A stretch of 64,000 nucleotides of DNA from Chloropicon primus (lineage: Eukaryota): the NCBI GenBank assembly GCA_023205875.1, contig CP060770.1, positions 248,001 to 312,000 on the forward strand. The letters run 5' to 3'. The position numbers were made by a program, and so were the translations under genes. Positions within the stretch are counted from its first letter, which is position 1, and each line of letters starts with the position of its first letter. This document shows positions 900 through 37,799 of the stretch, one piece after another. The notes below the pieces were generated by a model, which was given only the letters and a program-made list of their open reading frames with translations, was not told the origin of the DNA and searched no databases.

Positions 900-2910
900 A
901 TGGCGGGAAAGAGTTTGCTCTCTGCAATCCTCGCTGCTTCGGAGAGGAAGAGGACGAGGGAGGATGGGAGCGGAGGCCAACGCCGCGAGGGAAGGGTCCA
1001 GCCCTCCTCGATGCTCTCCTCCTCCTTCGGGTCGAGAGCGAAGGGGAGTGAACCCAGAACCAGCGAGGCATCACCATCATCACCATCATCACCAGCACCA
1101 GCACCACCAGCAGGAGGAGGAGGAGGAGGAGGAGGAGGAGGTTGTTTGTGCAAGAAGGATCGTGAGACGTTTTATGGCAGGAGGTGGGAGGATCAGCTTT
1201 GCAAGAAGGGAGTGCCAGGCCACCTGTTTGCCTTCTTTCGATCCTGTTGGGAGTTTCAGAGGGAGGAACTTGGCCAGGTGAGTCACGGACGACGTCGTCG
1301 GGTCGGTAGAGGACTTTGCAGACCTGACGTTCTCTGCTTGTATCGTTCGTTCCAGTCCTCCCCTTTGTCTTCTTCCGTGTTCAGCGATCCCTTCAAGACC
1401 TTCTCGAGGCAGAAGCAAATGTTCCAGTGGGTGGATGGGTTGGGGGCAACGGAGAAGCGGAGCGTGAAGTACTTCACCTTTGAGACCAGCGTGGTGAGAT
1501 CGGCCTCCTCCTCATTCTCGTCGTCGCAGGAGCACAGGAGGACGAAGAGGGTATTCCTGGCAACGACTTTGAGGCGGTTCTGGAGGCACTACAGCATTAT
1601 GCCAGCATTGTCTAGGCATCACTACGGTGAGATTATCCTTCGGGCGAAGAGCCTGAATCCCGGGCGAGCTTGTTCTGACGACGTTCTCTCTCTCTCTCTC
1701 TCTCTTCCTGCGCTTCAGAACTCATCAGAGAAGGGGAGCCTTGCTCCATGTATTTCGATTTGGAGTTTGCGGTGAAGCACAACGCCGGCCTCACCGCTCA
1801 GGGGGATCATCTCGTGGACGTCGTCCTGGAGCTAACCGCGCGTGAGCTACTCGAACGCTTCGGTCTCGGGATCGACTTGGGGAAGGACGTGGTCGAGCTG
1901 GATTCCTCGACAGAAACGAAATGGAGCCGGCACTTGATCATCCACTGGTAAGTTTAGAGTCCCTTCCTCGGGAACCCGATCAAATCCTCTCTGCTGTTGC
2001 CTGACTCTGCTCCCGTTGTTGCAGTGGCGGGAACTCTCTGTTGGCTTCCAACGCCCACGCCGGAGCTATAGCTCTGTCGGTGGTGAACCGATTGTTTTCG
2101 AAACTCGAAGAGGATGGTGGCGACAGGTACAGGAGCCTCCTTGTTCGCAATGGCGAGGGCGCGGAGACTCCGCTGATTGATCTGAGCGTCTACTCGAGGA
2201 ACAGGACCTTCAGAATTTTCAAGTCGAGCAAATTCGGGAAGCACGCGGAGCTGCGGTCCACCAGCCGTTTTGTGGGAGGGGATTACCTGAAGGAAGAGGC
2301 TGGCCAGGTAAACGCAGATCAGAAAGACAAGACCTTTTTCCTCAGCAGCCTTGTTTGTGGCCAATGCCCGAAGGAGAAGAAACTCTTGCACTGCGAGGAG
2401 GTTCTTAGGGTAGCCTCAGAATCAAAGCCATTCAATCCAACGAGCCGTTCCAATGCCAGGGCGGGTTGCGCGTCCGCTCCAGCGAGGATCGAGGAGGGCG
2501 ATGGACATTTGGCGAAGTTTCCATTGCTGGCAAGCTTCATCGCGAGGACAATGAGTCCCGATGGCCAGCCCCTGGGAAGGATCCGGTCGCACGTTCACTT
2601 TGTAGAATCCGGGACAATCATTCTGAACCTCGCGACGAATCGGTACTGCTCTCGCATCAAGAGGCAGCACAAGTCCAACGGAGTGTTCCTGGTCGTAGAT
2701 TGCAGCTTGGGTTACTGGTGGCAAAAGTGTTACGACCCGGATTGCAGGAGTTACCGTGGCGACCCCCAGGCGCTTCCTTTGGACGTTCTCGTTGAAGTCT
2801 CCGAAGAGATTCAGCAAGTCGCGGAGGACGAAGACTTTCTGAGAGCGATCGACGAGATCGAGGAGAGGCACTTGCACTGCCAAAACAAACATGTTGTAAG
2901 TAAATATTAA
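900..2910 (+). CDS. PRIMPOL: PrimPol DNA primase-polymerase (AEP domain plus UL52-type Zn finger), 3 introns (1278-1355, 1627-1718, 1948-2024)
   Basis: Splicing joins HHY-E-LIREGEPCSMYFDLEF (DxE motif), KWSRHLII (SxH), DLSVYSRNRTFR and the C-terminal RYC..IKRQHKSN...QKCYDPDC Zn finger. All introns are GT..AG with CTGAC branch points and preserve frame. Confidence 0.92.
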
Positions 2911-11915: not shown

Positions 11916-12210
11916 TCAAATCTTCTTCACGACGCTTCTCGAGGCAAGCCACCGATCGATCGAAAGATAATGAAGAGATGACCACTTCAGTGATGGTCTC
12001 CCTCGCTCTCACCTCCTCCTCGCGCTCTCTCCCTCCCTCGGAACGACAACCTCCTATCTCTCTCTCTCTGTCGACCGTTTCACTTGGTCAAAATCCTCTT
12101 CACGACGCTTCTCGAGGCAAGCGACCGATCGATCGAAAGAGAATGAAGGGGCGATCACTTCTGTATCGGTCTCCCTCGCTCTCCCCCTCCGCCTCGCGCG
12201 CCCTCTCTCT
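11916..12210. repeat. Diverged direct duplication, period ~173 bp
   Basis: CACGACGCTTCTCGAGGCAAGC...GATCGATCGAAAGA...GGTCTCCCTCGCTCTC begins at 11928 and 12101. Confidence 0.85.
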
Positions 12211-12231
12211 CCCTCTCTCTCTCTCTCTCTT

Positions 12232-12327
12232 GTCCTCCGATCGATCGCGATGATCCCGCCAAAAAGGTGATCGACAGAGGAGAGAGAGAGAGAGAGAGAC
12301 CATCGCGATCGCGATCGATCGGAGGAC
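12232..12327. repeat. 20-bp perfect inverted repeat with 56-nt spacer
   Basis: GTCCTCCGATCGATCGCGAT (12232-12251) pairs with ATCGCGATCGATCGGAGGAC (12308-12327). Flanking CT and GA runs could extend the stem. Confidence 0.8.
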
Positions 12328-12778
12328 GAGGATCGCGAGAGGAGAGAGAGAGGAGTTGCTAAGAAGACGACGCGTCCGTAGATCTTTCGAACGCTACCTC
12401 GGTTGGCAATTTTGGATCATTCCGGAGTGATTTGCACCTCGGAGGAGCATCGAAGCAGAGCATATAGCATTGACATAACTTTTGTCTTTCGAGGCAGTGG
12501 CGACGAGAGCGAGAGGGAGGGAGAGGAAGGGGACGAGGTGCAGCTCTTTCGAAAGACAATCTCGCGATCTTTCGAAAGAGTGGTCGCTCGACTCGTTTGG
12601 ATCATGGGAGTGAATGATACGGCGGCTTGCTTCGAAGACGTAAGGTGCAGGAGAAGTGTGCAGTGAGGGTGGCAGAGGTTTCGCTCACCGTGTTATAGAG
12701 GGAGCATGCGGCGTTGTGGCATCGAGGAGTATCGTGCTCATCGGATTGAGTAGCTCCTTTCCTTTATTTTTTTCCGTG

Positions 12779-14410
12779 ATGGCTGTCTTCTTCAGAGCTG
12801 GTTTCAACGCCGTGAGGAGGAAGGGGAGCCTCCTGGGTTGGAGCGGCCCTGGTCACGTCCAGCCATGCTTGTTTGGGTTTCACAGAAGTTTCAGCCGCGA
12901 TGCCGATGCTTCGGACGTCGTAGGAAACGCGGATGCTTACGACTATGACCTGCCAGAGGACCTAATTGCTCAGAAGCCGATCACTTGGCTCGACACCGAC
13001 CGGGCCGAGGTTCGACGCAGGGACGCTTCGAGGCTGCTGTGCGTGGACGTCACTGACGAGGGGAGTCATCCAATTCAGTTCCTGAGGCAATGCAAGTTCA
13101 CTGACGTGGCCTCGTTCTTGCCCAAAGGAAGCTTGCTTGTCGCGAACAACACAAAAGTTGTCCACGCCAGACTGCAGATGAGAAAGCGCACGACTGGGGG
13201 AGCGGTGGAGCTGCTGGTGGTCTCCCCCGCGGAGGGGTCGTGCGAATCGGGCCTGAGCTCCGGTCCAGCAGAGGCATCTGCGACGTGGAAGTGCATGGTG
13301 AAGGGAAAGAATGTGAATGAGGGCACTGTTTTGATCAAGCAGCACAGCTCTGGAGTGGTTCTGAGTGCGACCATTCTGAAGAGGAGTGAGGAGAGCAGCA
13401 AGTTTGCGGACGTTGAATTCAATTGGTCGGTGGAGGGCTCCTCCGATTCGAGTGGAAGGAAGTTTGGGGACGTCCTTGAGGCCTTGGGCTCGATCCCCTT
13501 GCCGCCGTACATGAAGAGAGCGGCGGAGACTCGGGACGCGGAATCGTATCAGACGATATACGCCGGAGTGCCGGGAAGTGTCGCTGCACCAACCGCAGGT
13601 CTTCACTTCACGGAGGACCTCGTGGGGAAGCTTGAGAGGTCCAGGAGCATCTGCTTGGAGAAAGTCACTTTGCACACCGGCCCTGGGACATTTGTGCCGC
13701 TGCAGTCGAGCAAAGTCCAGGACCACCATATGCACACAGAAACATTCTCCGTCACCAGAGAAGCTCTGGCCAACGTGTGCGAGTACTTGAGGGAGGGCAA
13801 AGACGGGGCGAAGAACCTCATTGCAGTCGGAACGACGACAGTCCGGACCCTGGAAACGCTGTACTGGCTGGGTCTGCGAAGGATGCTGCGAGAACCGGGG
13901 GGGAAGCCGATGGATGATGCCACACCGCTTGATCAGCGCGATGATGAGGGGAAGTCAAAGGTCTTAACTTTTAGCCTGGACCAATGGGAACCCTACGACG
14001 TGGTTCGAGACGCTTGCGGCCAGGATTGGAGCAAGCTGCCCGATGCCTGGGCTTGCTACCAGAACCTTTTGGAGGAGTTGGACGACCAAGGAAAGGACGG
14101 GGTTTTGGGCCAGACATCCTTGCTGATCATGCCGGGCTACAGGTTCCGGGTCTGCGACCAGCTCTTCACCAACTTTCATGCGCCGAAGACGACTCTGATG
14201 CTTCTCGTTTCGGCCTTTGCCTCGTCCTCGTGTGGCACACAAAACGACCTCGGCTTGCTCGACAGGCAAGGGAGGCAGAAAGTCCTCCATGCTTACGAGC
14301 AAGCAGTGAAGCACCGGTTTCGATTCCTCAGTTACGGCGATGCTTGTTTTTTCGCCAGGTTCAAAGACCTCCCATCACCCATGTTTGAGCAAGCCACAAG
14401 TTTGCTGTAA
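12779..14410 (+). CDS. queA: S-adenosylmethionine:tRNA ribosyltransferase-isomerase QueA with N-terminal organelle (mitochondria-like) presequence
   Basis: DYDLPEDLIAQ, RDASRLL, LVANNTKVVHARL, GSIPLPPYMKR, YQTIYA...GSVAAPTAGLHFT, VTLHTGPGTF, HHMHTE, IAVGTTTVRTLE, TNFHAPKTTLMLLVSAF, YEQAV...RFLSYGDA. All the QueA family motifs are present in order. Confidence 0.96.
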   Translation: MAVFFRAGFNAVRRKGSLLGWSGPGHVQPCLFGFHRSFSRDADASDVVGNADAYDYDLPEDLIAQKPITWLDTDRAEVRRRDASRLLCVDVTDEGSHPIQFLRQCKFTDVASFLPKGSLLVANNTKVVHARLQMRKRTTGGAVELLVVSPAEGSCESGLSSGPAEASATWKCMVKGKNVNEGTVLIKQHSSGVVLSATILKRSEESSKFADVEFNWSVEGSSDSSGRKFGDVLEALGSIPLPPYMKRAAETRDAESYQTIYAGVPGSVAAPTAGLHFTEDLVGKLERSRSICLEKVTLHTGPGTFVPLQSSKVQDHHMHTETFSVTREALANVCEYLREGKDGAKNLIAVGTTTVRTLETLYWLGLRRMLREPGGKPMDDATPLDQRDDEGKSKVLTFSLDQWEPYDVVRDACGQDWSKLPDAWACYQNLLEELDDQGKDGVLGQTSLLIMPGYRFRVCDQLFTNFHAPKTTLMLLVSAFASSSCGTQNDLGLLDRQGRQKVLHAYEQAVKHRFRFLSYGDACFFARFKDLPSPMFEQATSLL

Positions 14411-14490
14411 AGCCACGCAACCTTCCCACACAAAACCATCTGATTATATTATATATTATTATATTCTACACTGCTGTACAACAAACAAAC

Positions 14491-15309
14491 TCAAACCTTT
14501 CCCTTGCGGCTCCTCTGGACGAGAGCTCGGAAGGGCAAGAGGGATGCCAAGGCCACTGCAATTTTGATGGCGTAGTCCCCAGTTGCGAGCGTGGCCCAGT
14601 GAGGCATACTCGCGTCGCCATAAAAAGCCAGGAACTGTTTCATCCGGCAAGGCAGGAGCGTCGCGGTTAGCAAAGAATCGTGGTATCGAGGACTTGCAGG
14701 GTGTGCTGCGCTTGGCACTTACCGTGAATAAATAGCTATCGACGCAAGAGCTGATGCTCGTGCTGACCAGCGGAGCCTTCCACCATTCCTTGTCCCTTAA
14801 TTTGCTGAATATGTAAACGTCAAGAAGCTGGGAGAGCAGGAAGGAAGTCCCAGAAGCTGCTGCGATGCGCACTGGACTCAACAGCAGTGAGGCAGATACT
14901 CCCGCGCCGAATCCAAAGTAGACCACTTGACGCGCGCGATCCGCACCGTAGAGTCTGTTCGTAACGTCTGTGACGAGGAAAGCAACCGGGTAAGTGAGCG
15001 ATCCGACGGTGAGCCAATCCGACAACGGGAATTGCGCGAGGTAATTGCTTGCCACGACACTGACGACCATCGCACCCGTGGGAAACACGGGAAGGTCGGG
15101 CAGGCGAGGTCCCTCCCCCTCGACGGCGGCCTCTTGTCCATCCACCTGCTCGTTCTCCTTGGTCTTGCCACTGAAGCAGACTCCGTGGCCACTTCTCGTG
15201 CTGTAACAACTCGTGCTGTAACAAGACCGTCCTCGATTGAGATCAGGAGAGTTGGCCCCGAGCAAGCGCCTCCGAACAGCAACCACGCCCCCTCGACTCG
15301 CCGTCACCA

Positions 15310-15341
<32 letters not shown>

Positions 15342-15574
15342 TCGGTCGACGCCACTCTCGACCATGAAGCGGAGGAGGCAACGGAAGTGTGCTGATGCCT
15401 CAATCGGGGTTCACATGCCGCAGCTGCTGCTGCTCTTTCAACTCCTCCTCCGCCGTTGTGGAGGCACAGCAGCCGGTGAGCTGGTAAAGACTTGTCCCCT
15501 TGAAGGGATGAAAGCCAAACTCCTGGAGAGCATCGAGTCAAGAAGGCGACTCCTCTTGACAGGAATTCCGCCAT
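14491..15574 (-). CDS. yhhQ: YhhQ/Vut_1 (COG1738) queuosine-precursor transporter with long N-terminal targeting-like extension, one intron (14635-14722)
   Basis: MVVSVVASNYL, WLTVGSLTYPVAFLVTDVTNRLYGADRARQVV, RIAAASGTSFLLSQLLDVYIFSKLR..WWKAP..S...SSCVDS. A GTAAGT..CTAAC..CAG intron restores LFTFLAFYG...WATLATGDYAIKIAVAL..LPFRAL. Confidence 0.9.
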
Positions 15575-36737: not shown

Positions 36738-37799
36738 CTATATGTAGATGCCCTTCTTGGTCTTGAGCATCCCGTTCAAGTGTCTCAACTGCTCGGGCGT
36801 GTCGACGCCGTGGACAGCTTTCTCGACGAGGCCGACTTTGATCTTGTATCCGGCCTCGATGACTTTGTTCTGCTCGAGATCCTCTTGCTTCTGCAACAAG
36901 CTTTGTGGCATTTCATTCACGTACGTGTTCAAGAAGCTTGCTCGGTACGCGTAGATCCCTAGCTTGCGCCAGTACAAGCACTTGAGAGTAGGGGAGAGCA
37001 ATCCCAGAGTCAGAAAGAGACAAAGGCGGGCCACATGCCAATGAGAAAAGTCAACAAACAAACAAAAACTTACCTTGGGGTCGTACTTCCCCCTCTTGTT
37101 GTACGGTATCATAGCTCGAGAAAAGTACAGTGCGTTGTTGGTCTTGTCCAAGACAACCTTGACGTTGTTCACATTCGTCACATCTTCAGAATCATTCAGG
37201 TTGGCAGGCCTTGCCAAAGTCCCCATCACAACCGAAGCATCACCAGCTTCTATTCCACTCCTGATACAGTCCACGACCTTCTCCACGTGCTCTGATTCGA
37301 TAAACGGTTCATCCCCTTGAACGTTCACAACGATGTCATAATTCTTCTCACCGAGATGTTGCAGCACCTCCAAGCATCTCTCGGTTCCATTGTTGCACGA
37401 CTCGCTCGTCATCACAACCTTCCCACCAAAGTCTCTGACACACTCCGCGATGCGTTCATCGTCTGTGGCCACCACAAGCTCGTCAAAACAGTTGCTCTTC
37501 TTGGCATTGGTGTACGTGTGCCAGATCATTGGGTTGCCACAGAGGTCTGCCAATGGCTTGCCAGGGAATCGGGTCGAGTTGTACCTCGCAGGGATGACAC
37601 CCAACACCTTGTTGGTTGTCATCCTATTGTGCAACCACTTGTGAACCTTTGGAAGGAACCTTTTTGCCACCACCTCGTACACGAAGGCATGGAGAACAAA
37701 GGTCGCCAAGTGTTTGTTAATTTTGGATGATCTTTCGTGATCTTTCGTGATCTTCGTGGTGTCCTCCTTGGGACTCTTTTTCTTGCCGAAGAGAGACAT
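36738..37799 (-). CDS. kdsB: CMP-KDO synthetase (3-deoxy-manno-octulosonate cytidylyltransferase), one in-frame intron (36981-37073)
   Basis: VIPARYNSTRFPGKPL, VVATDDERI, GTER, VNVQGDEP, VKVV..ALYFSRA.IP, GIYAYR, EDLEQ, GVDTPEQL. The 93-nt GTAAGT..AG segment is non-homologous. Confidence 0.95.
   Translation of the reverse strand: MSLFGKKKSPKEDTTKITKDHERSSKINKHLATFVLHAFVYEVVAKRFLPKVHKWLHNRMTTNKVLGVIPARYNSTRFPGKPLADLCGNPMIWHTYTNAKKSNCFDELVVATDDERIAECVRDFGGKVVMTSESCNNGTERCLEVLQHLGEKNYDIVVNVQGDEPFIESEHVEKVVDCIRSGIEAGDASVVMGTLARPANLNDSEDVTNVNNVKVVLDKTNNALYFSRAMIPYNKRGKYDPKVSFCLFVDFSHWHVARLCLFLTLGLLSPTLKCLYWRKLGIYAYRASFLNTYVNEMPQSLLQKQEDLEQNKVIEAGYKIKVGLVEKAVHGVDTPEQLRHLNGMLKTKKGIYI

What the first reader, a model, noticed from the sequence alone, without database searches (positions are those of the whole stretch)
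12779..14410. QueA is the long variant and carries a mitochondrial-like presequence
Seen: about 45 residues precede DYDLP (MAVFFRAGFNAVRRKGSLL...FHRSFS), rich in Arg/Ser/Phe, lacking acidic residues until after RSFS, an R-x-F/S-type cleavage pattern. After TTTVRTLE the protein has TLYWLG...DQWEPY, an insertion absent from E. coli-type QueA that I recall from the longer Bacteroidota-type QueA paralogues. Inference: horizontal acquisition from a non-endosymbiont bacterium, followed by gain of organelle targeting.
Basis: partly seen in the sequence, partly recalled or inferred. Interest (0 to 1): 0.7.

Follow-up and report, generated by a model that had tools for sequence, protein, structure and literature searches.

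The report
Bacteroidota-type QueA in algal mitochondria
This nuclear gene of the tiny green alga Chloropicon primus encodes a bacterial tRNA-modifying enzyme that is predicted to work in mitochondria, as a 2025 paper already reported; what is added here is that it is the long form otherwise seen in Bacteroidota bacteria and is shared with red algae and other protists, so it was likely borrowed long ago rather than from the mitochondrial ancestor.

Summary
Observation confirmed. 12779-14410 is an intact, intronless, transcribed queA with an acid-free, amphipathic 40-residue leader ending in an R-x-F/S motif and a ~70-residue insertion typical of the second, long QueA paralogue of Bacteroidota s.l. 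The locus is Chloropicon primus chromosome 17, and Turmel et al. 2025 (PMC12301720) already report this QueA, its link to yhhQ and predicted mitochondrial targeting, so the core is known. Additions not found in print: the protein sits in the long-type clade (SH-aLRT 100), grouping with alphaproteobacterial QueA is rejected (AU p about 1e-8), and the same long type occurs in Galdieria, Porphyridium, Cyanidioschyzon, Nannochloropsis and Cymbomonas (fused to QueH). So the transfer is old and not Chloropicon-specific; one eukaryotic origin is the best tree but weakly supported. YhhQ resembles alphaproteobacterial proteins, so the pathway looks like a mosaic. No cyanobacterial QueA could be fetched; targeting and activity are untested. 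The scan's earlier notes held nothing relevant. Interest 0.35.

The parts
12779..14410 (+). queA CDS, 543 aa, intronless; long (Bacteroidota-type) tRNA preQ1(34) SAM ribosyltransferase-isomerase; C. primus chr17 gene 17p79870/17g80090 of Turmel et al. 2025
   Evidence: RNA contig 12767-14634 without a joint; Table 3 of PMC12301720
12779..12892 (+). predicted mitochondrial presequence, residues 1-38, R-3 cleavage predicted between F38 and S39
   Evidence: composition and hydrophobic moment; disordered in model; published DeepLoc/PredAlgo call; cleavage site is inference
13862..14101 (+). long-type insertion (about residues 362-441) replacing a 10-residue stretch of B. subtilis QueA; modelled as helix, loop, strand and two helices
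14491..15574 (-). yhhQ/QPTR (Vut_1) queuosine-precursor transporter, 331 aa after splicing, convergent with queA, stop codons 80 bp apart; C. primus 17g80100
   Evidence: PF02592 and TIGR00697 over cut-off; spliced product equals a 331-aa MMETSP protein
14635..14722 (-). 88-nt GT-AG intron of yhhQ
   Evidence: joint 14634/14723 in 4 of the 4 runs (4 of 5 different runs over)

Best explanation
The gene encodes an intact long-type QueA that is predicted to be imported into the mitochondrion and there would likely turn preQ1-tRNA into epoxyqueuosine-tRNA as one step of a bacterial-style queuosine salvage route. Steps: the neighbouring YhhQ would bring in preQ1, a bacterial-like TGT would insert it at position 34 of GUN tRNAs, QueA would move the ribosyl group of SAM onto it, and QueG would reduce the epoxide (TGT and QueG from the paper, not in this window). 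The gene descends from the second, long QueA paralogue of Bacteroidota s.l., not from the alphaproteobacterial form; it was most likely gained once, early (before red and green algae split), and lost in most lineages, while yhhQ looks like a separate proteobacterial gain that came to lie beside it in C. primus. Shown: ORF, domain, insertion, leader composition, transcription, linkage, clade membership. Inferred: import, cleavage, activity, single origin and its date, donor of yhhQ.
For: Keeps 65 of 75 columns that are near-invariant in short QueAs; fold matches only the solved QueA structures (4 matches at E<=0.001). Linked to yhhQ; relatives in Cymbomonas and 3 unnamed clusters are fused to QueH, the next enzyme. 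Long clade of 25 eukaryote-like and 38 bacterial rows against 13 short rows: SH-aLRT 100. Chloropicon + alphaproteobacteria rejected under LG+G and C20-PMSF. All 80 best GTDB loci of 597 sampled and all 8 organism-named hits of the best 120 proteins are Bacteroidota s.l.. All-eukaryote clade not rejected (AU 0.36/0.24); best ingroup-only tree splits 20 eukaryote-like from 28 bacterial rows (SH-aLRT 82, aBayes 0.99). YhhQ: 9 of 12 organism-named bacterial hits are Alphaproteobacteria, 3 Betaproteobacteria, 52-63% identity. Published model and targeting prediction agree.
Against: No activity, import or Q-tRNA measurement exists here or in the paper. P0001 scores just under the NCBIfam QueA cut-offs (311.5 of 324; 257.5 of 267.45). 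No tgt, queH or yhhQ lay within 80 bacterial long-queA loci (645 kb) and 4 of 5 genomes checked also hold a canonical QueA, so the long paralogue's job in bacteria is open. The paper itself notes that the algal TGT pocket may take queuine directly, which would bypass QueA. Single origin is weak: free trees break the eukaryotes into several groups, the search was started from a constrained tree, and with the outgroup the root falls among eukaryotes. Only 5 of 30 clusters looked up carried a eukaryote name; the other 'eukaryote-like' rows were picked by N-terminus and tree position. No cyanobacterial QueA in any tree.
Confidence: 0.65

Rival explanations
1. Same enzyme and place, but several independent transfers from basal Bacteroidota s.l. 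(Kapabacteria/Ignavibacteria-like) into different algae, or eukaryote-to-eukaryote spread, each with its own gain of a presequence.
For: Free trees need 4 label changes for the eukaryotes; Cyanidioschyzon sits among bacteria; internal branches are very short; the distribution is patchy; leaders are not alignable.
Against: Best likelihood trees keep bacteria on one side; interleaved trees were rejected under PMSF (AU 0.024 and 2e-8, but these were less optimised); no eukaryote nests inside Bacteroidales or Chitinophagales in any tree.
Confidence: 0.3
2. The protein is targeted to the plastid or to both organelles, since both genomes encode GUN tRNAs in most green algae.
For: Composition alone cannot separate the two signals; I could not run TargetP, PredAlgo or DeepLoc; paper says both organelles encode the four tRNAs in most green algae.
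Against: Leader is Phe/Gly/Arg-rich and strongly amphipathic with an R-3 motif, unlike the Ser-rich leaders of PurD and ABC1 in the same window; published predictors call mitochondrion.
Confidence: 0.12
3. The long paralogue does a different job (another substrate or a near-dispensable relic), and the algal mitochondrion gets Q by direct queuine insertion.
For: Bacteria with the long form mostly keep a canonical QueA and show no Q-gene linkage; two C. roscoffensis strains lack yhhQ and the TGT pocket looks queuine-accepting.
Against: QueH fusions in eukaryotic relatives, yhhQ linkage, intact motifs, retention in 5 of 5 Chloropicon strains, transcription.
Confidence: 0.12
4. The gene came from the mitochondrial or plastid ancestor by endosymbiotic transfer.
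For: Old, organelle-targeted, present in Archaeplastida; cyanobacterial QueA untested here; an endosymbiont could have carried a borrowed long form.
Against: 5 of 5 alphaproteobacterial QueAs lack the insertion and grouping with four of them is rejected; no cyanobacterial or alphaproteobacterial name among the top hits.
Confidence: 0.06

Closest known systems
Chloropicon mitochondrial bacterial-type Q salvage pathway (YhhQ, BL-TGT, QueA, QueG), Turmel et al. 2025, PMC12301720
   Same: Same gene (chr17 queA next to yhhQ 17g80100), same predicted function and compartment, same idea of an ancient origin shared with red algae.
   Different: The main text names no bacterial donor for QueA ('bacteroid' 0 hits in text and in the machine-read supplement), uses NJ trees of BLAST hits, and does not mention the long paralogue, QueA-QueH fusions or a proteobacterial affinity of YhhQ in the passages read. 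The labels of its Fig. S5f tree are a picture that I could not read and may already show Bacteroidota.
Canonical QueA (PF02547, TIGR00113, PRK00147; PDB 1YY3, 1VKY, 1WDI)
   Same: Same fold and motifs.
   Different: About 70 extra residues after the GTT-R-LE motif, further loops, an N-terminal leader; scores just under the two NCBIfam cut-offs.
Long second QueA paralogue of Bacteroidota s.l. (about 400-420 aa)
   Same: Shares the insertion and the clade; 34-39% identity.
   Different: Bacterial copies lack a leader, usually accompany a canonical QueA and show no Q-gene neighbours; I found no paper on their function.
BL-TGT of algae and protozoa, Chlamydia-derived (Manna and Harman 2016, as cited in PMC12301720; not read)
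   Same: A non-endosymbiont bacterial gene retargeted to mitochondria in the same pathway.
   Different: Different enzyme and different donor group.

Membership tests
QueA (PF02547) | Pfam match over the gathering score | tested here: met
   306 bits vs 25
QueA (PF02547) | NCBIfam equivalog cut-offs TIGR00113 / PRK00147 | tested here: not met
   257.5 of 267.45 and 311.5 of 324; five bacterial long forms pass only when their two pieces are summed
QueA (PF02547) | Conserved motifs and two-domain QueA fold | tested here: met
   65 of 75 near-invariant columns kept; pTM 0.83 model matches 1YY3/1VKY/1WDI at E<1e-18
QueA (PF02547) | SAM-dependent ribosyl transfer to preQ1-tRNA | not testable with these tools
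   needs complementation or in vitro assay
Long Bacteroidota-type QueA paralogue | Insertion after GTT-R-LE with YWxG and QWE-Y words | tested here: met
Long Bacteroidota-type QueA paralogue | Falls in one clade with the bacterial long forms, apart from short QueA | tested here: met
   SH-aLRT 100; alphaproteobacterial grouping rejected
Long Bacteroidota-type QueA paralogue | Nests inside a named Bacteroidota lineage (identifies the donor) | tested here: not met
   branches outside or at the unresolved base of the bacterial radiation
Mitochondrial presequence protein | Acid-free, positive, amphipathic N-terminal extension with R-2/R-3 motif | tested here: met
   motif definition recalled
Mitochondrial presequence protein | Start codon confirmed at the 5' end of the mRNA | tested here: inconclusive
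   unstranded contig covers 12767 onward unspliced; contigs cannot show a start; no downstream Met keeps the domain
Mitochondrial presequence protein | Import and cleavage in mitochondria | not testable with these tools
   only the paper's DeepLoc/PredAlgo prediction
Endosymbiotic (cyanobacterial) QueA | Groups with cyanobacterial QueA | not tested
   no cyanobacterial sequence among 54 plasmid or 21 phage records; control genomes give presence only
YhhQ/QPTR (COG1738) | PF02592 and TIGR00697 over cut-off for the neighbour | tested here: met
   76.6 vs 27.2; 68.5 vs 50.95

The most novel reading that the evidence does not exclude
An early eukaryote (at least the ancestor of red and green algae, perhaps older) took the long QueA paralogue once from a stem Bacteroidota bacterium and built a mitochondrial queuosine pathway from three unrelated donors (Chlamydia-type TGT, Bacteroidota-type QueA, proteobacterial YhhQ added later in Chloropicon); the repeated eukaryotic QueA-QueH fusions are then the first evidence that the uncharacterised second QueA of Bacteroidota is a working queuosine enzyme.
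Probability: 0.4. Interest if true: 0.6.

Novelty: already known. Interest (0 to 1): 0.35.

Why it matters
Eukaryotes were long thought only to salvage finished queuine; a bacterial preQ1 route in algal mitochondria (published 2025, untested) changes that and may tie picoalgae to bacterial preQ1 in poor waters. The additions here give it a donor group and a wider range, and make one open point directly testable: whether the long second QueA that many Bacteroidota carry is a real QueA. Because the gene, its linkage and its predicted location are in print, the finding itself is only moderately interesting.

Tried and rejected
No whole genome is held for the window, so TGT, QueG and organelle tRNAs were not checked; Pfam on 36 window ORFs and tblastn with tgt and QueH found no other Q gene in the window. 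A metagenome scan with P0001 found 28 pattern matches, none a relative. An alternative gene model (ATG 12614, GT..AG intron 12640-12795, in frame, also giving an Arg-rich leader) was considered: no such joint in 5 runs, one contig crosses the would-be donor and one the would-be acceptor unspliced; not excluded, since contigs are unstranded and drop rare forms. GC3 of queA (0.70) and yhhQ exon 1 (0.63) lies within the range of 12 native genes (0.63-0.89): no sign of recent arrival or contamination. treekit's AU test on 76 rows did not finish twice; replaced by 45-row IQ-TREE tests. Constraints 'Chloropicon + red algae', 'Chloropicon + Cymbomonas' and 'eukaryotes without C. merolae' had only fast-search trees, so their AU values (0.07 to 0.0002) are not used. 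A bootstrap run on the ingroup timed out twice: no bootstrap values exist. Sigma-70 scan of the upstream region was uninformative. Paper searches for the long paralogue or eukaryotic QueA returned only PMC12301720 as relevant. The search of earlier findings gave two unrelated repeat notes and then nothing.

Full report
What is there. The window is gene-dense eukaryotic nuclear DNA (XPB, COPB, dynamin, EF2, CSN5, CFAP43/91). 12779-14410 (+) is one open frame of 543 aa matching PF02547 at 306 bits and the three solved QueA sequences; an AlphaFold model (pLDDT 81, pTM 0.83) matches only QueA structures at E<=0.001. It keeps 65 of 75 columns that are near-invariant among 13 short QueAs but falls just under both NCBIfam equivalog cut-offs.

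The leader. 54 residues precede DYDLP; bacterial relatives have about 8-15. Residues 1-40 carry six basic and no acidic residues, which no 41-residue window of the mature protein does (0 of 455); the helical moment of residues 4-14 (0.83) is the highest of 19 window genes, and R36-S-F|S fits the R-3 cleavage pattern (pattern recalled). The model leaves 1-46 disordered. The next Met is residue 134, so no downstream start keeps the domain. One RNA contig covers 12767-14634 without a joint; contigs cannot show strand or start. A possible upstream exon (ATG 12614, intron 12640-12795, in frame) found no support in 5 runs and would also give an Arg-rich leader.

The insertion. The spacing from GTT..R..E to TN[FY]H is 103 here, 68-101 in 79 of 80 Bacteroidota s.l. 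loci and 27-33 in 10 of 12 other bacteria, among them E. coli and five alphaproteobacteria. After three close algal-type relatives (51-52%), the best proteins are 400-420 aa forms at 34-39%; all 8 with an organism name are Bacteroidota s.l. Four of five such genomes carry both a 355-aa and a long QueA, and more than half of 201 sampled Bacteroidota genomes show two or more PF02547 matches (second copies not typed one by one).

Tail to tail lies a YhhQ/QPTR transporter gene with an 88-nt intron seen spliced in 4 of 4 runs; the spliced 331-aa product equals an MMETSP protein, and its core equals Chloropicon primus HOP50_17g80100 on a contig of the same length (498,022) as that of P0001.

Prior art. 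Turmel et al. [quoted passage not shown] No experiment is reported. 'Bacteroid' occurs 0 times in text or readable supplement; the tree labels of Fig. S5f are a picture and were not seen. PMC1282579 (passages) gives the older view that QueA is bacteria-only. All other papers were seen as search listings only.

Range in eukaryotes. Three of the five have basic, acid-free N-termini; Nannochloropsis does not, and the Cymbomonas model starts at the domain and is fused to QueH. Three unnamed clusters are also QueA-QueH fusions and three more are fused behind folate-related domains. In contrast, no tgt, queH or yhhQ was found near 80 bacterial long-form genes.

Trees. FastTree on 372 rows and IQ-TREE C20 on 76 rows put all long forms in one clade apart from short QueAs (SH-aLRT 100). 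On 45 rows, Chloropicon + alphaproteobacteria is rejected (AU 1e-8, 9e-8); an all-eukaryote clade is not (0.36, 0.24); the best tree has bacteria monophyletic and the root among eukaryotes, which may be long-branch attraction. Without the outgroup (48 rows) the best tree found separates 20 eukaryote-like from 28 bacterial rows (SH-aLRT 82, aBayes 0.99), but it came from a search seeded with the constrained tree, short free searches gave interleaved trees, and no bootstrap finished. Rows were subsets chosen by me from 372; most 'eukaryote-like' rows are unnamed. No cyanobacterial QueA was obtainable. YhhQ's named bacterial hits are 9 alpha- and 3 betaproteobacteria, by similarity only, and the paper finds it on another chromosome in C. 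roscoffensis, so the linkage is likely secondary.

Verdict. A real, intact, expressed gene that works like QueA and is predicted mitochondrial; published in 2025. Already known, with a modest unpublished addition. Interest 0.35.

Noticed in passing
window 14491-15574 (-): The NCBI model of YhhQ (163 aa) starts at an internal Met and omits a 168-residue N-terminal extension that a complete 331-aa MMETSP transcript product contains; a relative (P0403) has a similar long leader.
   Followed up: partly
proteins P0296/P0186, P0321, P0326, P0371: QueA-QueH fusions in Cymbomonas tetramitiformis and three unnamed clusters, whereas Chloropicon is reported to use QueG: eukaryotes seem to use two different epoxyqueuosine reductases.
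   Followed up: partly
proteins P0318, P0320, P0325, P0218: Unnamed 750-1190 aa proteins join long QueA behind FolD and pterin-4a-carbinolamine dehydratase domains (and PF09084 in three), in the same clade as the QueH fusions.
   Followed up: no
proteins P0140, P0143, P0194, P0263: Bacterial long QueA fused to EPSP synthase, HPPK or NUDIX domains.
   Followed up: no
window 12545-12601: A 40-bp element with palindromic TTTCGAAAG boxes upstream of queA matches contigs of several other transcripts; CTTTCGA/TCGAAAG occurs 30 times in the window: possibly a dispersed promoter motif.
   Followed up: partly
window 11918-12013 and 12091-12186: Two 96-bp direct repeats (88% alike) in the divergent intergenic region between the PWWP gene and queA, with CT/GA-rich inverted arms around 12213-12330.
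   Followed up: no
window 36738-37799 (-): Cytidylyltransferase (PF02348, KdsB/NeuA-like) gene with the lowest GC of the genes compared (0.50).
   Followed up: no
window 2041-2910 (+): ORF matching PF03121 (UL52/UL70 primase zinc-finger), probably the end of a PrimPol-type gene.
   Followed up: no
L097 (Collinsella aerofaciens): A QueA with a different, 58-residue spacing at the same insertion site, next to queH: the site may tolerate independent insertions.
   Followed up: no
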